Of a stretch of DNA of 64,000 bases, positions 3,322-57,104 are shown piece after piece. The position numbers were made by a program, and so were the translations under genes. Each line of letters starts with the position of its first letter. The stretch's first letter is position 1. The notes under the pieces are model-generated. The model was not told the origin of the DNA. It did no database searches and worked only from the letters and a program-made list of their open reading frames with translations. This DNA comes from a virus (lineage: Duplodnaviria > Caudoviricetes): the IMG/VR virus record IMGVR_UViG_2595698868_000001, positions 192,001 to 256,000 of that record; one strand, written 5' to 3'.

Positions 3322-4032
3322 ATGTCCAAAACCATCTACACCTACATCGTGGAAGGCCCCAAGTACGGCGAATTTCCGCTGGACATGCTCCGCCGCGATC
3401 AATCCCAGGCGGCTACCGCCGCTGATCAAGCCCTGATCGATCGCCTCGCGGCCTTCGGCGTCGACAAGAAAGACCTGCCCAAGCGCGTCCGCGTCAAGCT
3501 GACCATGTCCAGCGACCGCTATCCGCCCAATGTCGAACGCTGGGAATCGTTCGGCTGGCAGGTCATCGCCAGCAATCACCCACGCAACTACGGCCTGCCG
3601 TTCACCATGGACGAGATCGCCGAGCAGGAACGCTCCGGCGAGGTCCCGGCGGCGCCCGTGAAGAAGTCGCGGCGCGAGACGCTGCGCGACCTCAAGGATG
3701 CCGTCGTCCGCCTGGAACCCTACGTCTACATGGCGAAGCCGACCTTCCAGGCCATTCGTGAGGCTTATGAAGCCTGTGAGTACGATCCCGAAGAGCGCCA
3801 GCATGCCTTGGGGATGCTCGACGGCGTCCGCACCGTGCTGAAGACGGGCAAGACCGCCGGCTTCATCGACGGCGCCGATGTTCGTGTGCTGATCACCGCG
3901 CTCGATCTGGCCTACGACCTGCTCACCTACCAGGACACCGACTACATCCGCAGTTTCCTCGGCGATCGCCCCGACACGGTCCTGGCCGACCTGAAGAAGC
4001 TGCTCACGATGTTCAAGGGGATCGCCGCATGA
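3322..4032 (+). CDS. hypothetical protein
   Basis: GGAGG RBS after class B promoter; strong codon bias. Confidence 0.8.
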   Translation: MSKTIYTYIVEGPKYGEFPLDMLRRDQSQAATAADQALIDRLAAFGVDKKDLPKRVRVKLTMSSDRYPPNVERWESFGWQVIASNHPRNYGLPFTMDEIAEQERSGEVPAAPVKKSRRETLRDLKDAVVRLEPYVYMAKPTFQAIREAYEACEYDPEERQHALGMLDGVRTVLKTGKTAGFIDGADVRVLITALDLAYDLLTYQDTDYIRSFLGDRPDTVLADLKKLLTMFKGIAA

Positions 4033-5819: not shown

Positions 5820-6142
5820 TGGACATCGAACTGCGCAAGATCGACAACAGCGGTGAGCGCGAGGAAGTCTTCGGCCGCCGCAAACGACAACGCCGGCGCC
5901 TGAACGCCTACGACATCATCCACGATGGTGTCGTCATCGGACGCGTCAGCGAGCGTCTCGTCACCTTCGAGAATCGCTCGCCGGGCAGGATGTACGTCAA
6001 CTATCGCTGGCAGAACGTGCGCTGGTTCGCCGAACGCCTGGGTCAGAATCCGCGCTATCGGGGCGGCTCCGAAACCCGCAAGTTGGAAGTCGAAGGCTTC
6101 CTGCGCGACTGGACCCGTGAACAGAAGGAGGCTTCCGCATGA
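5819..6142 (+). CDS. hypothetical protein
   Basis: GGAGG RBS, TGATG coupling. Confidence 0.7.
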   Translation: MDIELRKIDNSGEREEVFGRRKRQRRRLNAYDIIHDGVVIGRVSERLVTFENRSPGRMYVNYRWQNVRWFAERLGQNPRYRGGSETRKLEVEGFLRDWTREQKEASA

Positions 6143-6813
6143 ACGACATCAAGCACGTCTCTTTCGACGTCTGGAAAACGCTGATCGACCCGAGCCCGGA
6201 TTTCGGCGCCGCTCGCCGGCAACTGCTGATCGACACGTTCGATCTGCCCCCGAAGCAGGTCGAGACCGCGTACCGCTGGGTCAAGGACTCCTCGGATGGG
6301 GATGCTGAAGCCGCTGGAATTGGCTACACCAGCGCTCAGGTCTACGAGAAGCTGATGGAGGCGCTCGGCTTGCCCGCTGACGATTGGTGGGCGCTGCGCT
6401 CCAAGATCGAGGCCCTGTTCGCCAAGCATCCGCCGATCGTGCGGCCGGGCGTGACCGAGACGTTGCAGGCGCTGCAAACCGCCGGCTACGGCCTGTCGAT
6501 CTCCAGCAACACCAACTTCATCGCCGGAGCCTGTCTGCGAGAGGTTGTCTTGGATCATCTCGGTATCGAGTGGTCCTTCGCCCTGTTCTCGGACCAGATG
6601 GCGGTCGCCAAGCCGAACCCCCTCATGTGGCATGCCGTGAAGTCGCTCGCGGCGCTCCACTCGAACGCCGAGCCGCATCAAGTCCTGCACGTGGGCGACA
6701 ACCTCATCTGCGACGGCAGGTGCGTCGACCACGGGCTCCAGTTCCATCCCATCAACCAACCGGCGGACTTCCCCGCCCTGACCGGAGTCCTTCTGAATGC
6801 CCAAGCAGCGTAG
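6139..6813 (+). CDS. HAD-superfamily hydrolase
   Basis: Motifs FDVWKTL, SSN, KPNP and HVGDN...D. Confidence 0.9.
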   Translation: MNDIKHVSFDVWKTLIDPSPDFGAARRQLLIDTFDLPPKQVETAYRWVKDSSDGDAEAAGIGYTSAQVYEKLMEALGLPADDWWALRSKIEALFAKHPPIVRPGVTETLQALQTAGYGLSISSNTNFIAGACLREVVLDHLGIEWSFALFSDQMAVAKPNPLMWHAVKSLAALHSNAEPHQVLHVGDNLICDGRCVDHGLQFHPINQPADFPALTGVLLNAQAA

Positions 6814-7672
6814 TCCGTTCGCGCAGTTCGTCGTCCACAGCTTCGACGACCTGGAAAACCCGTCCTTCTGTCCGCGCGACTACTCGCGGCTGAAGTTCGG
6901 CTCCGACATCGTCGCCCGTCGGTTCGGCGACGAGATGGCCGAGGCCTTCTATGCGCAGCACCATGATCTGTTGATCACCGATCGCTGCGTCGTCGTGCCG
7001 TCCGCCTTCAACGTCGTCGAGATCGCCGCGACCATCCTGGCGCGCCACTTCATGAACCGCCTGAACGACCTGCTGACGCGGGAAGGCCATCGCGGCGTCG
7101 AGTGGACCATCATGCACCGCACGATGAGCTACGTCGCCGACTACTCCTTCATGCCGAAGGAGGAGCGCGCCGCGATGCTGAAGGCCGACAAGTTGTTCAT
7201 CAACCGCGACTTCATCGAAGGCAAGGTGCTGCTGTTCGTCGACGACGTCACCATCACCGGCGCCCACGAGCACAAAATCGTCGACTTCCTGGACGGCCTG
7301 GGGCTGAAGAATCCGCGCATCTTCTGCTACTACGCGCGGTACAACGGCGAACGCGCTGATATCGAAGCCGCGCTCAACCAGTCGAGCATCAAGGGCGCCG
7401 ACGAGTACGTCGAACTGATCCGCGAACCGGGGCATCAACTCGTAGTTCGGGCCGTCCGCTTCCTGCTGGACCTACCGACGTCGGAACTCGCCACGGTCCT
7501 GCGATTCGTCGATGGGCTGTTCATCGACAAGCTGTACCATGCCTGCCTCGCCAAGGAGTACGACAAGCAGGAGAAGTACCGCCAGGGCTTCGAGATGATC
7601 CGGGCGCGCCACGACAAGGGCTCGGCCTGGGGCACGCCGCCGGCGCAGGTCGTCAACATCGCGGCGGCGTGA
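6797..7672 (+). CDS. phosphoribosyltransferase (PRTase_3/ComF-like)
   Basis: PRPP-binding loop VLLFVDDVTITGA; YSRLKFGS N-terminal motif; paired with a HAD gene. Confidence 0.8.
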   Translation: MPKQRSPFAQFVVHSFDDLENPSFCPRDYSRLKFGSDIVARRFGDEMAEAFYAQHHDLLITDRCVVVPSAFNVVEIAATILARHFMNRLNDLLTREGHRGVEWTIMHRTMSYVADYSFMPKEERAAMLKADKLFINRDFIEGKVLLFVDDVTITGAHEHKIVDFLDGLGLKNPRIFCYYARYNGERADIEAALNQSSIKGADEYVELIREPGHQLVVRAVRFLLDLPTSELATVLRFVDGLFIDKLYHACLAKEYDKQEKYRQGFEMIRARHDKGSAWGTPPAQVVNIAAA

Positions 7673-7981: not shown

Positions 7982-8643
7982 CGAAGCAGGTCACCCGCAT
8001 GGAAGTCGACGGCTCGGTCGTTCTTATCGAGCCGATGGAGCGCGAGGTCTCCTATCGCTACAGCGATGGCAGCGTAGGCGCCTATCGCCAGCGATCGCTC
8101 TACAAGGTGCTGGTCGATGACGTATTGCGAGGCTACCTGTCGTTTCCGATGGGCTACGGTGGTAGATGGTCCGTCGTAACGCTGCGCCCAAAACACCGCT
8201 ACAGCAACGTCTGGCGGCATCTGTATAGCGATCGCACCGAGCACGGCTTGTTCGAATACTACCGTTCTGTCTCGCCCGGCGTGCTGAATGAAACGGAGAA
8301 TTGGGGCGAGCACGCGAAGTTCTGGGAGGACCGTAACGCCATCCTGGCCGCCTTCCCCAAGATGATCGCGCTCGGTCGCGCTCCTTCGCCGGAAGAGGAA
8401 GAAGCAAACCTCATCCAGATGAAGGCGGACTATGAGGAGTCCGTGCGTCAAGACGCCGCCAACAAGGAGCGTTGGGCGCGAGAACGTGCCGAACGTGAGG
8501 CTCAGCAGGCCGAGGCCGCGCGCATCGCCGAGGAAAAGCGTCTGGAGACCCTCGAAGGCCTGAACTCCATCTTGGCCCGCGAGACCCTGACCAACTTCGA
8601 GCGCGACTGCCTGATGACGGCGATCGCACGGTTCTCGAACTAG
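7978..8643 (+). CDS. hypothetical protein with C-terminal coiled coil
   Basis: GTGA overlap start; ERAEREAQQAE-type helix. Confidence 0.7.
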   Translation: MTKQVTRMEVDGSVVLIEPMEREVSYRYSDGSVGAYRQRSLYKVLVDDVLRGYLSFPMGYGGRWSVVTLRPKHRYSNVWRHLYSDRTEHGLFEYYRSVSPGVLNETENWGEHAKFWEDRNAILAAFPKMIALGRAPSPEEEEANLIQMKADYEESVRQDAANKERWARERAEREAQQAEAARIAEEKRLETLEGLNSILARETLTNFERDCLMTAIARFSN

Positions 8644-8704
8644 AGAGTTGACAGCCGACTGAGGGCGCCACTAAAACTGTCACGACCCTTTCAGGATAAC
8701 CGGC

Positions 8705-9298
8705 ATGAACATCACCCTCCGCAAAGCCTCTCAGTTTTCCAAAGCGCTGATCGAGGCAGGCCGCAAGACCACGATCAATCGCCTCATCTCGGTGTCGGTC
8801 TACGAAGACTCCGTGGAAAAGCCCGCGCAAGCCCTGGTCGAACTGGCCCAAGAGGCTGCGCGGGAGAAGCTGACCCAAGCGCTCCACATGATCACGGGTG
8901 GCTACGAACTGCGCGGTCAGATCGCCAAGGCCAACGCCGACGTCGGCATCAACCTCCTGCTCACCGAGCAAGCCAACCTCTCGGCGCACGAGGCCCTCAT
9001 TTCGACGGTATGCGGCATCGAGTACACCTACGATGACTCGGTGGAGCCGCAGTACGCCGACGCAAAGCTGACGACGCTGAAGAAGAAGCGCGAGACCGAG
9101 ACCGTCATGCACCATGACGATCACCTGAACGTGCGCGTCATCACTGACGAGATCAAGGTGCCGCTGAAGGACTCGATCGCGGTGATCCGCCGGCGCAAGG
9201 CGGAGATCGCCGATGAACTAACCTATCTGAACGCCAGCACTCGTATCGAGGTGTCGGAGAACGTCCAGAGCCTGCTGAAGGCCCTGAAGCTGATCTAA
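8705..9298 (+). CDS. mostly helical coiled-coil protein, DIP1984/DUF6847-like (tentative)
   Basis: MNITLRKA N-terminus, LRGQIAKANA and IADELTYLNASTRIEV motifs; own class B promoter at 8645. Confidence 0.6.
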   Translation: MNITLRKASQFSKALIEAGRKTTINRLISVSVYEDSVEKPAQALVELAQEAAREKLTQALHMITGGYELRGQIAKANADVGINLLLTEQANLSAHEALISTVCGIEYTYDDSVEPQYADAKLTTLKKKRETETVMHHDDHLNVRVITDEIKVPLKDSIAVIRRRKAEIADELTYLNASTRIEVSENVQSLLKALKLI

Positions 9299-9302
9299 CG
9301 AG

Positions 9303-9562
9303 CTTGGACGTGCTGCCTTTCCTGCGGGACTGGCAACGTCCGAGGGGTGGAAGCGGAGAAGAGGAACGCAACAGCAAAGATGAGGCTCCGGCCTTCATCA
9401 TGGAACCCACCGCTTACGCGGACATCTCTTTGCTAACCGGAATTACTCTACGGAGTGCCCTTATGGGCTTGTTGTTTGTTCCGGACTGTAGAGATTTGTG
9501 GGTTGCGCGTTGTCCGTTGTAGCTTGCCCTTTGTCCAGCGCCCTTTATCACCGCTTCCACTC
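9303..9562 (+). ncRNA. putative structured ncRNA with a 7-nt periodic UUG array
   Basis: Hairpin 9303-9344; 12-bp closing stem 9345-9356/9551-9562; inner stems 9373-9380/9427-9434 and 9437-9442/9479-9484; TTG at 9496, 9503, 9510, 9517, 9524, 9531. Confidence 0.7.
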
Positions 9563-9582
9563 TACCAATTCACGGAGTCCTC

Positions 9583-9828
9583 ATGCGTAAGACCTTCTTC
9601 GGTGAACTGATCTTCCAACCCGGCGACGATTTCTTCGCTGAATGGAACATGAACTTCCAGGAAGACCCGGACGGAGAAATCGCCCGGTTCATCGAGCATG
9701 ATCCTGAAACCGGTTGGGGCTGCGAGATCACCGATAACAACGACCGCACCGCCCACGCCGCCGACTTCGAGAGCCGCGAGGCCCTGGTCGAGTGGTTGAC
9801 CCAGAACAAGATCGAGGTCGAGGTCTAG
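9583..9828 (+). CDS. acidic hypothetical protein
   Basis: GGAG RBS. Confidence 0.75.
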   Translation: MRKTFFGELIFQPGDDFFAEWNMNFQEDPDGEIARFIEHDPETGWGCEITDNNDRTAHAADFESREALVEWLTQNKIEVEV

Positions 9829-9831
9829 GCC

Positions 9832-10431
9832 ATGAACCGTCGTGAAATCCTCCTGGGCGCCGCCGCCATGGCAGGTGCTTCGGCCGTCGGTCTTCCCGCG
9901 CTCGCCACCGTTCGCGTTCGTGGTGCATGGGAAGACCTCGACAGCGATAAGGCCCATGCCTTCGTCTTCTGGTCGGCGGAAGCGAACGCGAGTCCGCACC
10001 GCAAGGTGGTCCGCGACTGGATCAAGGAAGTGGTCGATACGGGCATCCTGTACTGCGCCGGCGACGGCTTCATCGGTGATCGCACAGTGCGCGTCGAGAA
10101 CCTCCGGTTCGACGTTGCCTGGGGCAAGCCAGTGTTCAACTACATGTCCGGCTACACCGATGAGATTGGTCCGTCGATCACGATCACCGAGCACATGCCG
10201 GACGGCAGGGATGCCGTTTTCGCGCCGGTTGGCCTCGCCTCGACCCACGGATCGACGCACGTTCGCGCCGAGTATCGGGACGTCTACTTGGTTCGCAAGC
10301 CGCTGCTTCGTTACGAGGAGGAGCGAGAACTGCGGTACGTCCTCGGCGACACTAACGGCTACAGCCCCAATTCGCGCATCGGCTATGACATGCGCTGGCT
10401 GGACGACTTCAAGCTGAAGGGTTCGGTCTGA
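9832..10431 (+). CDS. hypothetical protein with twin-arginine-like N-terminus
   Basis: MNRREILLGAAAMAGASAVGLPALA resembles a Tat signal peptide. Confidence 0.65.
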   Translation: MNRREILLGAAAMAGASAVGLPALATVRVRGAWEDLDSDKAHAFVFWSAEANASPHRKVVRDWIKEVVDTGILYCAGDGFIGDRTVRVENLRFDVAWGKPVFNYMSGYTDEIGPSITITEHMPDGRDAVFAPVGLASTHGSTHVRAEYRDVYLVRKPLLRYEEERELRYVLGDTNGYSPNSRIGYDMRWLDDFKLKGSV

Positions 10432-10838
10432 TGGTCCAGCCGCGCCGGTCCTTCGAATCGATCCGTGAAGTGGTCGCGGCCTGTTCGTACCCAGGCTTGG
10501 ACTTCAAGCTCGCGACGCATCCAGGCACGGATAAGCCATATCTCCAGATCGTCTGCGAGGATGGCGTTGACACGAAGACCGGTGAGGCTGCCTCCTGGAA
10601 AGGGCGTAAGTGGGACCTGTCCTACTACGCGACCGACACCGAGATCGTTCAGACCGCTTGGGCCGCCGTCCAGCGAGCCTTGATCCACGAGGCGAGCGAG
10701 ATGTTCAAGTTCAAGGACGCGGCCATCTATGATCGCCACATCAGCGTCCATCGACTGGTCGACCTGATCGCGGGCGCCGATCCCTACGACAGCCGCGAAG
10801 ACGCGATGAACGGCCTTGGAGAAGACAGTGCTGCGTAG
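10431..10838 (+). CDS. hypothetical phage protein
   Basis: TGATG coupling; GRKW...EIVQTAW...HEASEMF motif. Confidence 0.75.
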   Translation: MVQPRRSFESIREVVAACSYPGLDFKLATHPGTDKPYLQIVCEDGVDTKTGEAASWKGRKWDLSYYATDTEIVQTAWAAVQRALIHEASEMFKFKDAAIYDRHISVHRLVDLIAGADPYDSREDAMNGLGEDSAA

Positions 10839-11562
10839 TCAGGCCATCGTAATCGACCTAGGCGACACCCAGACCTATCACGATCTCGACGGCGTCCACG
10901 CCGACTACGCTGCCGGCATGCGCAAGCTGGGCTACGACGTCAGCCAGGAACTGCGCAAGAAGTTCTTGTCGCCCGGTACCGGACATCCGCTGAAGCGTGA
11001 GATGTACGAAAAGATTAAGGGCACCGATTTCTTCCGATATCTACCGATCATGCCCGGCTCGGTCGAGATGTATCGTGCCCTGAAGAGCACGAACGAGCCG
11101 GTCATCCTGACCGCTTCACCGCTGTTCGGTGCGACCGAGGACAACTACTATCTCAATCCGTACTGGCAAGGCGCCAAGTATCACAAGCGTGGATGGGTTG
11201 AGCATGTCTTTCTGCCGCAGACCCAGCCTTACGAAGATTTCGCCTTCGGTATGCGTCGCGTTCACTACTCCGATCACATCGCGATCGCGGATGAGAACTT
11301 CATCTGCACGACCAGTAAGCGCAAGCACGAGTTCCTTCACCACAAGCACTCCCAGCGCCAACTGCTGATCGACGACAAGATTGAGAACGTCACCGCTTGG
11401 GCCGAGGCCGGCGGTCTGGGCATCCTTCATCTCGATCCCCATACCACGATGCGGGCGGCAGCCCTCCTGTCGGGTCAGGATTTCGGTTTCGAAGGTCCCG
11501 GCGAATGGAAGCGCTGCGGCTCCAACGGGGGCTACCTGTTTGATGCGCGGGTGCCTGAATGA
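10816..11562 (+). CDS. 5'(3')-deoxyribonucleotidase-like HAD phosphatase
   Basis: DLDGVHADY, FFRYLPIMPG, ILTA, LLIDD...N...W...GG.GI; start uncertain. Confidence 0.75.
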   Translation: MEKTVLRSQAIVIDLGDTQTYHDLDGVHADYAAGMRKLGYDVSQELRKKFLSPGTGHPLKREMYEKIKGTDFFRYLPIMPGSVEMYRALKSTNEPVILTASPLFGATEDNYYLNPYWQGAKYHKRGWVEHVFLPQTQPYEDFAFGMRRVHYSDHIAIADENFICTTSKRKHEFLHHKHSQRQLLIDDKIENVTAWAEAGGLGILHLDPHTTMRAAALLSGQDFGFEGPGEWKRCGSNGGYLFDARVPE

Positions 11563-12251
11563 TCGAGGTTCCAGGCATCCGCGCCTTCGGATTCGTCCCC
11601 GGCTACGAGCGCAAGGGCCTCTATTCGATCGAGGAGGTTCACGCCCACATCGGTCCCGAGCCACGAGAGTTCGACGGCGACATGGTTCCAATGGCGTCGC
11701 AGCGTTACGTGCTGTTCGCACGCGCACATGCCTGCGTGCGTTGTGGCCTCGTAGGCGCCTTCTACGCCAAAGAGCGTAGCGCTCGGTACGTGAAGTCGAC
11801 GGGCGAATACCGACCAACGACGAACTCCTGGCACTTCAATCTCTACGCCCTAACCGATGGTCCGAGCCCCCGCGCGGTTCTGATGACCAAGGACCACATT
11901 GTGCCCAGGGCGCGCGGCGGGGCCGACGTCGATGAGAACTATCAACCGATGTGCTCGCCGTGCAATACGCGCAAAGGCCACCGCATCGAAGGCGAGTCTG
12001 ACGAGGAATTCCAAGCTTCGCCGGCGGAGGTGGCCCGACGCCGCACGATCGAAGAGGCCCGCGCGCGCAAGCGGGATCGCCACACCGAGGCGCGTCACCT
12101 CCTGATCCAACAGGTCAAGCGCCTGTGTAAAGAGGTGGGTTTGGAGCCGCCAACCGACAACGAGTTCTGTCGGATCGCTAATCGCAAACTGTCAGCGCGG
12201 ATCAGTGATCTGCTTCTGATCAAGAACCAGACGGTGGTGGCCTATGCCTGA
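11559..12251 (+). CDS. HNH endonuclease family protein
   Basis: CVRCG...TKDHIVPRARGGAD..NYQPMCSPCNTRKG. Confidence 0.9.
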   Translation: MIEVPGIRAFGFVPGYERKGLYSIEEVHAHIGPEPREFDGDMVPMASQRYVLFARAHACVRCGLVGAFYAKERSARYVKSTGEYRPTTNSWHFNLYALTDGPSPRAVLMTKDHIVPRARGGADVDENYQPMCSPCNTRKGHRIEGESDEEFQASPAEVARRRTIEEARARKRDRHTEARHLLIQQVKRLCKEVGLEPPTDNEFCRIANRKLSARISDLLLIKNQTVVAYA

Positions 12252-57028: not shown

Positions 57029-57104
57029 TGGCGATCCCTACTGGACTCGAACCAGTACCCGCCCTTTAGAAGAGGGCTGCCCTCTCCAGTTGGACCAAGG
57101 GACC
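57029..57104 (-). tRNA. tRNA-Arg (anticodon TCT)
   Basis: Reverse complement: GGTCCCT/AGGGATC acceptor, GCCCT-CTTCTAA-AGGGC anticodon arm, ACTGG-TTCGAGT-CCAGT T arm, encoded CCA; 76 nt. Confidence 0.92.

What the first reader, a model, noticed from the sequence alone, without database searches (positions are those of the whole stretch)
8645..9562. Helical protein gene plus downstream structured RNA with six UUG triplets at exact 7-nt spacing: candidate novel ribonucleoprotein system
Seen: a 197-aa helical protein gene (8705-9298) has its own promoter and is directly followed by ~260 nt of apparently non-coding sequence, unusual in this gene-dense region. That sequence forms a 5' hairpin (9303-9344), then a domain closed by a 12-bp stem (GGGTGGAAGCGG 9345-9356 / CCGCTTCCACTC 9551-9562). 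Nested helices include AGCAAAGA/TCTTTGCT and CCGGAA/TTCCGG, the latter enclosing ACTC-TACG-GAGT and GCCC-TTAT-GGGC. An apparently unpaired tract has TTG at 9496, 9503, 9510, 9517, 9524 and 9531, with variable 4-nt spacers. Established: periodic triplets with variable spacers are how ring-shaped oligomers such as TRAP bind RNA. Inference: the upstream protein (tentatively DIP1984/DUF6847-like) oligomerises on this RNA, one subunit per heptad, forming an uncharacterised RNP (toxin-antitoxin-like, anti-defence or regulatory).
Basis: partly seen in the sequence, partly recalled or inferred. Interest (0 to 1): 0.88.

Follow-up and report, generated by a model that had tools for sequence, protein, structure and literature searches.

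The report
New phage RNA with partner protein
Between two genes of a giant Caulobacter phage lies a folded, non-coding RNA with an unusual "UG every seven bases" tract, and this RNA turns out to belong to a widespread, undescribed family that always sits next to the same small helical protein gene in giant phages.

Summary
Window 9303-9562 (+) is a structured non-coding RNA. It has a 5' hairpin, a covarying closing helix, nested hairpins and six UUG at exact 7-nt spacing (0 of 100 shuffles).

The RNA matches no Rfam 15 family. Relatives of the 197-aa protein in Brevundimonas phages, IMG/VR and metagenomes carry an RNA of the same architecture on the same strand beside the gene. It usually lies just upstream behind a TTGACA-N17-TATAAT promoter, sometimes downstream as here, often inside tRNA arrays.

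Covariation in 40 sequences is strong: 96% of cells paired, 31 of 39 pairs compensatory, 0 of 500 shuffles. The periodic unit is YUGY-N3, eight units per RNA, with free spacers. The model used (R1, 3' half) finds one match per genome in 5 of 5 giant-phage genomes.

The protein is helical, matches no Pfam family, and its best fold match is 3KDQ.

Best reading (about 0.45): an uncharacterised phage ribonucleoprotein in which the protein reads the periodic UG units. Binding is inferred, not shown. Rivals are an autoregulatory leader, or an RNA that acts on a host factor.

The parts
8648..8677 (+). Promoter-like pair, TTGACA (8648-8653) and CTAAAAC (8671-8677), upstream of the protein gene
   Evidence: Read. 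Conserved in CcrPW and Domovoi. Not scored by the generic sigma-70 scan. The match to the Caulobacter promoter consensus is recalled, not tested.
8705..9298 (+). Gene for the 197-aa helical partner protein. It has a conserved N-terminus MNITLRKA, a fold that best matches DIP1984 (3KDQ), and no Pfam family.
9303..9344 (+). P0: the 5' hairpin. Its base CUUGG/CCGAG is conserved, while the upper stem differs entirely in CcrPW but still pairs.
9345..9359 (+). P1 5' strand (purine-rich GGGUGGAAGCGGAGA) of the closing helix
   Evidence: Pair probabilities 0.94-1.0. The 15-pair helix has compensatory changes in Brevundimonas phages.
9382..9395 (+). P2 hairpin (GAGGC-UCCG-GCCUU)
   Evidence: The core AGGC/GCCU (9383-9386/9391-9394) is predicted by RNAalifold on A2, with 1 compensatory change. 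The G9382-U9395 extension is my own reading. The single-sequence MFE does not contain this hairpin.
9410..9421 (+). P3 hairpin (CCGC-UUAC-GCGG)
   Evidence: MFE. The loop differs in CcrPW.
9427..9494 (+). P4 composite hairpin. The outer stem is 9427-9433/9488-9494 and the inner stem 9437-9443/9478-9484. It encloses mini-hairpins 9445-9456 and 9457-9468 and a U/G-rich strand with two UG units (about 9472, 9478).
   Evidence: The equivalent P4 in the low-GC clade covaries (helices 6 and 7).
9496..9537 (+). Six UUG-N4 heptads (family consensus YUGY-N3). UG is invariant across 52 aligned RNAs while the spacers vary.
   Evidence: 5 of the substitutions between the window and CcrPW in the RNA core fall in the spacers.
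9548..9562 (+). P1 3' strand (UCACCGCUUCCACUC)
9583..9828 (+). Downstream 81-aa gene. It is syntenic only in the Caulobacter/Brevundimonas clade, so it is probably not part of the module.

Best explanation
Window 9303-9562 encodes a member of an undescribed family of phage structured non-coding RNAs, about 220-300 nt long.

The RNA has a 5' hairpin (P0), then a long closing helix (P1) with a purine-rich 5' strand. P1 encloses a multi-helix core (P2-P4). Eight YUGY-N3 heptads sit in segments that the family consensus leaves single-stranded. They are arranged 2+6 here and 2+4+2 where an extra hairpin P5 is inserted.

The RNA is made from the same transcription unit as a roughly 190-aa helical protein with a DIP1984/3KDQ-like fold.

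Shown:
- the RNA structure and its covariation;
- the invariance of the periodic UG with free spacers;
- near-obligate, single-copy linkage of RNA and protein gene on one strand, in either order;
- the RNA's own consensus promoter, or a start directly after a tRNA 3' end, in most phages;
- restriction to viruses, mostly giant phages with tRNA arrays.

Inferred:
- the two products form a ribonucleoprotein in which copies of the protein read the UG units at 7-nt register, in the manner of HutP (UAG-N4) or TRAP;
- the folded core holds the tracts in place.

What the particle does is unknown. The setting among tRNA genes, IF-1 and RNA polymerase omega genes points to RNA or translation biology.
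For: Structure
- Fold z -4.97.
- In the window clade P0, P1 and the mini-hairpins keep pairing through compensatory changes (21 of 54 predicted pairs).
- In 40 low-GC RNAs, 39 pairs are 96.3% paired and 31 have changes on both sides. 0 of 500 shuffles reach this, and slid controls give 32-43%.

Non-coding
- Indels break the ORF in CcrPW. A 7-nt period is out of codon register.
- The core is 96% identical to CcrPW against 89.7% for the surrounding 2.5 kb.

Periodicity
- The exact pattern occurs in 0 of 100 shuffles.
- UG columns are invariant in 52 aligned RNAs.
- In 554 heptads the unit is Y(94%)-U-G-Y(94%)-N3. 66 of 87 RNAs show runs of 2, 4 and 2, and the window shows 2 and 6.
- Variants with six contiguous units and the RNA downstream of the gene also exist in low-GC contigs such as L204.

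Linkage
- All 5 syntenic cultured-phage loci examined have the gap RNA.
- 69 of 79 protein-seeded IMG/VR loci have the RNA at E <= 1e-10 on the same strand. 46 are adjacent upstream, 16 upstream with a spacer, 7 downstream.
- 52 of 64 metagenome loci have it at E <= 0.01.
- An RNA-seeded scan returned 115 new loci, 113 with the RNA. The protein gene lies beside it in all but 5, and each of those 5 has under 240 nt of sequence on that side. Many of these contigs are the same as in the protein-seeded set.
- Exactly one RNA hit per genome in 5 of 5 giant-phage genomes. By my own conversion of the locus coordinates, each lies beside the protein gene.

Own expression signals
- About 60 of 67 distinct upstream regions have TTGACA-N17-TATAAT ending 3-5 nt before P0. 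Five others start right after a tRNA 3' end.
- Some downstream copies end in a U-run.

Protein
- 1877 representative clusters at E <= 1e-3.
- Only 1 locus in 185,579 species genomes.
Against:
- The protein is near-neutral (median pI 6.2) and has no known RNA-binding domain.
- In the window's single-sequence fold much of the heptad tract pairs with 9374-9408, and most of those pairs survive in CcrPW.
- Linkage could reflect shared transcription alone. In most phages the RNA is simply the 5' leader of the protein's mRNA.
- Homology of the high-GC window clade to the low-GC clade rests on synteny and architecture. nhmmer found no link in either direction.
- The half-length covariance model hit the right spot only weakly: window 9392-9539 at E 1.8, CcrPW at E 0.22, and no Brevundimonas hit.
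- No expression data exist.
Confidence: 0.45

Rival explanations
1. The RNA is a cis-acting autoregulatory leader or UTR. The protein, or another factor, binds the heptads on its own mRNA to control read-through, translation or stability, as TRAP, HutP or ribosomal-protein leaders do. In this reading there is no free-standing particle.
For: - In 62 of 69 loci the RNA lies between a consensus promoter and the protein gene, or an rpoZ-like gene followed by the protein gene. There is no room for a second promoter, so it must be the leader.
- The heptads lie immediately 5' of the P1 3' strand, and in some phages P1 is followed by a U-run.
Against: - In the window clade and in L012, L013, L052, L204 and L269 the RNA follows the gene. 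In L013 a tRNA comes next, and in L012 a U-run.
- In some contigs other RNAs separate the two (L021, L043).
- Five copies start directly at a tRNA 3' end.
- About 290 nt with five covarying helices is far more than known repeat-binding attenuators use (that comparison is recalled).
Confidence: 0.2
2. The RNA works on its own or on a host factor, as a sponge, decoy or scaffold for a host RNA-binding protein or enzyme that reads YUGY. One speculative version notes that Y-U-G-U-N resembles positions 32-36 of the anticodon loops of Asp, Tyr, His and Asn tRNAs. The neighbouring protein would be co-expressed but not bound.
For: - The setting is tRNA arrays with GOLLD RNA, tmRNA, IF-1 and RNA polymerase omega genes.
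- 72% of low-GC heptads read UGUC, UGUA, UGUG or UGUU.
- The protein is not basic.
- RNA-only assemblies are known for GOLLD and ROOL (abstract seen in the listing).
Against: - This does not explain why the same protein gene stays beside the RNA in every complete locus, through at least four different arrangements and a GC range of about 28-58%.
- Heptad positions 5-7 do not follow anticodon-loop rules.
Confidence: 0.25
3. It is a divergent member of a known RNA class: a Y RNA partner of the phage's Ro60 homologue, 6S RNA, tmRNA, a riboswitch, or a GOLLD/ROOL fragment.
For: - The 5' and 3' ends pair in a long stem, as in Y RNAs and 6S RNA.
- The genome encodes a TROVE/Ro60 protein.
- A paper states that Y-like RNAs and Ro60 homologues were reported in CcrColossus (passages of PMC12135203 read).
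Against: - No Rfam 15 family matches at E <= 10 in the window RNA or in L013. In L050 the only row is a chance-level SNORD74 match (14.2 bits against a gathering score of 41, E 2.3, minus strand).
- The Ro60 gene lies about 93 kb away.
- In the loci examined, none of the 25 largest neighbour gene families I looked at is a TROVE protein; the constant neighbour is the 190-aa protein.
- ARAGORN finds no tmRNA or tRNA here.
Confidence: 0.04
4. The gap encodes a small protein (the 72-aa ORF 9304-9522), or the periodicity is a chance or DNA-level feature.
For: An ORF of 72 aa with a TTG start exists.
Against: - The frame is broken in CcrPW, and there is no Pfam hit.
- Compensatory base-pair changes show selection on RNA structure.
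- The pattern is absent from 100 shuffles.
Confidence: 0.01

Closest known systems
HutP with hut mRNA (Bacillus)
   Same: A short triplet is repeated with 4-nt spacers, giving a 7-nt period, in two blocks on single-stranded RNA read by an oligomeric protein. These properties of HutP are recalled, not tested here.
   Different: The motif here is YUGY, not UAG. There are eight units, not six. They sit inside a folded RNA of about 290 nt with its own promoter, not a simple terminator region. The protein here is an all-helical bundle, unlike the HutP fold as I recall it. Binding is unproven.
TRAP with the trp leader
   Same: Periodic triplets with variable spacers wrap an oligomer. The spacers are free to vary, as seen here.
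   Different: As I recall, TRAP reads 9-11 (G/U)AG units with 2-3-nt spacers on a ring of beta-sheet subunits. Neither the fold nor the period matches.
DIP1984 protein of Corynebacterium diphtheriae (PDB 3KDQ) / Pfam DUF6847
   Same: It is the best whole-length fold match (Z 10.2, 140 residues) and has Foldseek probability 0.89. There is also an ESM-Atlas lead.
   Different: There is no sequence match. Z is below the level the tool itself calls safe for helical bundles. That family has no known function either.
GOLLD and ROOL large phage RNAs
   Same: They are large, ornate RNAs of phages found next to tRNA genes. GOLLD occurs on the same contigs (L012, L021, L041).
   Different: There is no model match. 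This RNA is smaller, carries a periodic tract and has a dedicated protein gene.
Ro60 with Y RNA
   Same: A phage-encoded RNA whose ends form a long stem, paired with a dedicated protein. The same phage has a Ro60 gene.
   Different: The partner here is a 190-aa helical protein. No Y RNA model matches, and the Ro60 gene is 93 kb away.
Catalogue of about 8,500 candidate structured RNAs from IMG/VR (PMC10690425)
   Same: It used the same data source and may list this RNA as an unnamed candidate.
   Different: The main text never uses 'jumbo', 'omega' or 'GOLLD' (find mode). The supplements could not be read, so prior listing cannot be excluded.

Membership tests
Any Rfam 15 family | A score against a curated covariance model | tested here: not met
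   The window RNA and L013 have no match at E <= 10. L050 has only a chance-level SNORD74 row (14.2 bits against a gathering score of 41, E 2.3, minus strand). A gathering-threshold scan of 20 loci listed only tRNA, GOLLD and tmRNA among the 150 rows shown; 27 lower-scoring rows were not shown.
HutP/TRAP-type repeat-binding attenuation system | Periodic short motif with variable spacers on single-stranded RNA | tested here: met
   UG is invariant at a 7-nt period while the spacers vary. The tract is unpaired in the family consensus, but partly paired in the window's own MFE.
HutP/TRAP-type repeat-binding attenuation system | The protein belongs to the HutP or TRAP fold or family | tested here: not met
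   No Pfam or NCBIfam match. The model is a helical bundle.
HutP/TRAP-type repeat-binding attenuation system | An oligomeric protein binds the repeats | not testable with these tools
DUF6847 (PF20935) / DIP1984 family | Sequence match to the family profile | tested here: not met
   Nothing at E <= 1. PF20935 has no hit at E <= 10 in the phage's own genome or in 5 giant-phage genomes.
DUF6847 (PF20935) / DIP1984 family | Shared fold with 3KDQ | tested here: inconclusive
   It is the top VIA hit (Z 10.2, rmsd 6.0, 140 residues), with Foldseek E 0.25 and probability 0.89. It covers the whole chain, but the score is within the range common for helical bundles.
Y RNA (Ro60 partner) | Adjacent to an rsr/TROVE gene and matching a Y RNA or YrlA model | tested here: not met
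   The TROVE gene is at G000 107.6-108.4 kb and the RNA at 201.3 kb. No model matches.
tRNA / tmRNA | Detected by ARAGORN or Rfam | tested here: not met
Type III toxin-antitoxin (ToxIN-like) | Tandem repeats of a roughly 36-nt antitoxin RNA beside an endoribonuclease toxin | tested here: not met
   The repeat unit is 7 nt inside a single folded RNA. The protein was not scanned against PADLOC and has no ToxN-like Pfam hit.
Protein-coding small ORF | The frame is conserved in relatives | tested here: not met

The most novel reading that the evidence does not exclude
This is a new class of viral ribonucleoprotein. A folded RNA of about 290 nt displays eight YUGY heptads that are read, one unit per subunit, by a helical protein of a fold with no known function. 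Giant phages keep it as a single-copy module inside their tRNA and translation gene islands. Fold relatives of the protein even occur in giant eukaryotic viruses that, as I recall, carry large translation gene sets (Catovirus, Yasminevirus). The particle would act on host or phage RNA metabolism, for example on tRNA anticodon-loop biology.
Probability: 0.3. Interest if true: 0.9.

Novelty: categorically new. Interest (0 to 1): 0.8.

Why it matters
Large structured RNAs with unknown function are rare finds and have repeatedly led to new biochemistry. This one has three useful properties.

- It comes with a strict protein partner.
- It has a simple, mutable periodic motif (UG every 7 nt).
- It occurs in cultured phages of a genetically tractable host: CcrColossus and CcrPW on Caulobacter, and the Brevundimonas vB_BpoS phages.

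The RNP hypothesis can therefore be tested directly.

It also gives a first functional handle on a large protein family without annotation (1877 representative clusters) and possibly on the DIP1984/DUF6847 fold. It adds a component to the poorly understood tRNA islands of giant phages, alongside GOLLD RNA and a second unknown RNA noted below.

Tried and rejected
Sequence links between the clades
- An nhmmer profile of the window clade (A2) found no low-GC RNA. The low-GC profile found no window-clade RNA. Six bridging sequences, tried singly and as a profile, gave nothing better than E 4. The link between the clades is therefore by synteny, architecture and unit count, plus the weak model hit.

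Searches that returned little or nothing
- A search for covarying partners of the heptad columns gave only signals confounded by the two main subclades. A possible CAA/UUG long-range contact was not resolved.
- The search for homologous proteins returned only 5 close relatives.
- tblastn of a low-GC family protein against cultured phages found no match.
- A profile search of PDB sequences gave no meaningful hit (best: HP1242, E 0.004 over 46 residues).
- The look-up of sequencing runs listed no run, so there was no RNA holder and read laying was not used.

Links considered and dropped
- RNA polymerase omega: an rpoZ-like ORF (PF01192, 39-50 bits) often lies between RNA and protein. The window's genome has none, so omega is not an obligate partner.
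- Ro60/Y RNA: rejected on distance and on model scores.

Literature
- Searches for DIP1984, DUF6847/septicolysin, CcrColossus with noncoding RNA, CMfinder with jumbo phage, and huge phages with structured RNA found no description of this RNA.
- For PMC12135203 and PMC10690425 I read only the passages returned by find mode. Other papers were seen as listings only.
- Supplements are closed, so the candidate lists of PMC10690425 were not checked.
Full report
**Where the window lies.** The window is positions 192001-256000 of a 279,967-bp virus record. The protein of 8705-9298 is 100% identical to K4K6G4 of Caulobacter phage CcrColossus. The nearest public genome shown, CcrPW, is 89.7% identical over 8000-10500.

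**The observation.** The ORF 8705-9298 (197 aa) is followed by a 284-nt gap before an 81-aa ORF at 9583.
- As RNA, the gap folds to -120.3 kcal/mol. Shuffles average -94.3, giving z -4.97, and 0 of 200 shuffles fold as well.
- Six TTG at exact 7-nt spacing occur once in the window and in none of 100 shuffles.
- In the single-sequence fold the tract is partly paired with 9374-9408, so 'unpaired' cannot be read from this sequence alone.

**It is not a gene.**
- In CcrPW the core 9345-9562 is 96% identical, more than the flanks.
- Two 1-nt indels destroy the 72-aa frame there, leaving only 48- and 63-aa ORFs in other frames.
- The 5' hairpin has a completely different sequence in CcrPW but still pairs.
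- Most of the few substitutions in the core fall in the 4-nt spacers between the UUGs.
- No Rfam family matches at E <= 10, and ARAGORN finds nothing here.

**Relatives in cultured phages.** tblastn finds the protein at 28-33% identity in seven Brevundimonas vB_BpoS giant phages.
- In the four I fetched, the synteny is the same: HAD hydrolase, phosphoribosyltransferase-like gene, then this gene, an unannotated gap of 285-315 nt, and an 82-aa ORF.
- In the aligned gaps (A2) the closing helix covaries over 15 pairs, for example GGGGUGGAAGCGG/CCGCUUCCACUC against GGGGCGGGGACGG/CCGUCCCCGCUC. The mini-hairpins covary too.
- UG stays at a 7-nt period although the units read CUGCACU or AUGCUUU instead of UUGNNNN.

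**Relatives in uncultured phages.** A protein-profile scan of IMG/VR confirmed 124 relatives, of which 80 were kept. Many lie on contigs of 230-360 kb.
- Reading the flanks showed an RNA of the same build: a hairpin, a purine-rich strand GGAAG..., internal hairpins, UUG heptads, a pyrimidine-rich closing strand and sometimes a U-run.
- A profile from six of these RNAs found it on the same strand in 69 of the 79 non-CcrPW loci at E <= 1e-10, and in 4 more at E <= 1e-4.
- Of the 6 misses, two have almost no upstream sequence, three have weak hits, and one (L039) was later found with the covariance model.
- The arrangement varies. 46 are directly upstream of the gene (gap up to 90 nt), 16 are upstream with a 200-300-nt spacer, 4 are directly downstream as in the window, and 3 are downstream behind other RNAs.
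- The spacer encodes an RNA polymerase omega homologue (PF01192, 39.5 and 50.5 bits).
- The converse scan was seeded only with a conserved 22-mer of the RNA and gave 117 stretches. Of 115 new loci, 113 have the RNA. The protein gene lies beside it on the same strand in every one except 5 that have under 240 nt of sequence on that side. Many of these contigs overlap the first set.
- A metagenome scan added 64 loci, 52 of them with the RNA at E <= 0.01. These include forms with six contiguous heptads and the RNA downstream of the gene, such as L204, which bridge to the window type.
- In five whole giant-phage genomes a covariance model of the 3' half hits exactly once each. By my own conversion of the locus coordinates, each hit lies next to the protein gene.
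- The window's genome has a single copy.
- Only one of 185,579 species genomes holds the protein, and an RNA with a closing helix and U-run follows it there too.

**Structure of the family.** On 40 low-GC sequences the RNAalifold consensus has 39 pairs in 7 helices.
- 96.3% of cells are paired, against 85.2% in shuffles.
- 31 pairs have changes on both sides.
- 0 of 500 shuffles reach any of the five measures, and slid controls pair 32-43%.
- The heptad segments carry no consensus pairs.

**The periodic unit.** Over 554 heptads the unit is Y-U-G-Y-N-N-N, with UG at 100% by construction of the count and Y at 94% on either side.
- UG columns are invariant in the 52-sequence alignment.
- The usual layout is two units in the P4 loop, four after P4, a variable hairpin P5, then two more (66 of 87 RNAs).
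- The window lacks P5 and has 2 + 6. The total of eight is therefore shared.

**Expression signals.** About 60 of 67 distinct upstream regions carry TTGACA-N17-TATAAT ending a few bases before the 5' hairpin. Five others begin directly after a tRNA 3' end. In the window clade a conserved TTGACAG...CTAAAAC pair precedes the protein gene instead.

**Is the window RNA the same family?** Sequence methods fail across the GC gap. The half-length model hits the window only at 9392-9539 (E 1.8) and CcrPW at the homologous place (E 0.22). These were the only two hits in 92 kb on both strands. Together with orthologous protein linkage, identical helix order, the shared CCGAG/GGAAG junction, eight units and the bridging forms, I judge homology likely but not proven.

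**The protein.**
- AlphaFold2 with 35 sequences gives pLDDT 78, five long helices and short N- and C-terminal strands.
- Pfam and NCBIfam give nothing. PHROG 25230 (unknown function) matches weakly over the full length.
- A profile search finds 1877 representative clusters at E <= 1e-3, nearly all 184-193 aa.
- The only solved structure covering the whole chain is 3KDQ, the Corynebacterium diphtheriae protein of unknown function (VIA Z 10.2, 140 residues; Foldseek probability 0.89, E 0.25).
- An ESM-Atlas neighbour cluster carries DUF6847 in 19% of its members, but the DUF6847 profile hits nothing in six phage genomes.
- BFVD shows fold relatives in Erwinia phage pEa_SNUABM_47, Vibrio phage Vp_R1, Catovirus and Yasminevirus.
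- The median pI is 6.2.

**Interpretation.** The RNA and the linkage are established. That the protein binds the heptads is inference. It rests on invariant periodic UG with free spacers, conserved unit number, and a linkage that survives changes of order and insertion of other genes. The leader rival explains the commonest arrangement but not the downstream and tRNA-flanked copies. The host-factor rival does not explain the constant partner. No known family fits (see the membership table).

Noticed in passing
L010:3574-3790 and 114 other loci (e.g. L016, L025, L060, L068, L021): A second conserved RNA-like element of about 215 nt starts right after the stop codon of the partner protein (CAGACCCCGG ... 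GGACAGAGUAAC ... CUAGACACUUU). nhmmer finds it in 115 loci. It has no Rfam match at E <= 10. The window does not have it.
   Followed up: partly
L021:3780-3905, L043:2745-2870, L025 about 3790-3930: A third hairpin-closed element of about 130 nt ('RNA B') lies between the protein gene and the heptad RNA or tRNAs in some contigs.
   Followed up: no
L010:2792-3000, L045:805-1032 and about 118 loci: Uncultured giant phages encode an RNA polymerase omega (RpoZ, PF01192) homologue, often between the heptad RNA and the partner protein. The window's genome has none.
   Followed up: partly
Loci L007-L201 (IMG/VR): Recurrent neighbours of the module are tRNA arrays, IF-1 (PF01176), a dual-specificity phosphatase-like protein, a metallophosphatase and a weak 2OG-Fe(II) oxygenase-like protein.
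   Followed up: partly
L012:4446-4909, L021:1117-1581, L041:2151-2613; L041:4494-4973: GOLLD RNAs (187-205 bits) and a permuted alpha-type tmRNA lie within a few kb of the module.
   Followed up: no
L133 (IMGVR_UViG_3300026566_000199), also L007: One 6.9-kb contig carries two copies of the RNA-plus-protein module in tandem orientation.
   Followed up: no
G000:C1:107635-108432 (outside the window): The phage encodes a Ro60/TROVE homologue about 93 kb from this RNA. A paper states that Y-like RNAs and Ro60 homologues were reported in CcrColossus (PMC12135203, passages read).
   Followed up: partly
window 6139-7672 and 10816-12251: The neighbourhood is conserved with CcrPW and the Brevundimonas phages and looks nucleotide-related: a HAD-like hydrolase, a phosphoribosyltransferase-like protein, a 5'(3')-deoxyribonucleotidase-like ORF and an HNH-like ORF. 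The names are those given in the other phages' records.
   Followed up: no
BFVD hits A0A1V0SA40 (Catovirus CTV1), A0A5K0UAD2 (Yasminevirus): Fold relatives of the partner protein occur in giant eukaryotic viruses (Foldseek E 1.5e-6 and 2.3e-5). As I recall, these viruses have expanded translation gene sets.
   Followed up: no
window 57029-57104 (-): A single tRNA-Arg (TCT) is the only tRNA in the window. Unlike in the low-GC phages, the module here is not inside a tRNA array.
   Followed up: no
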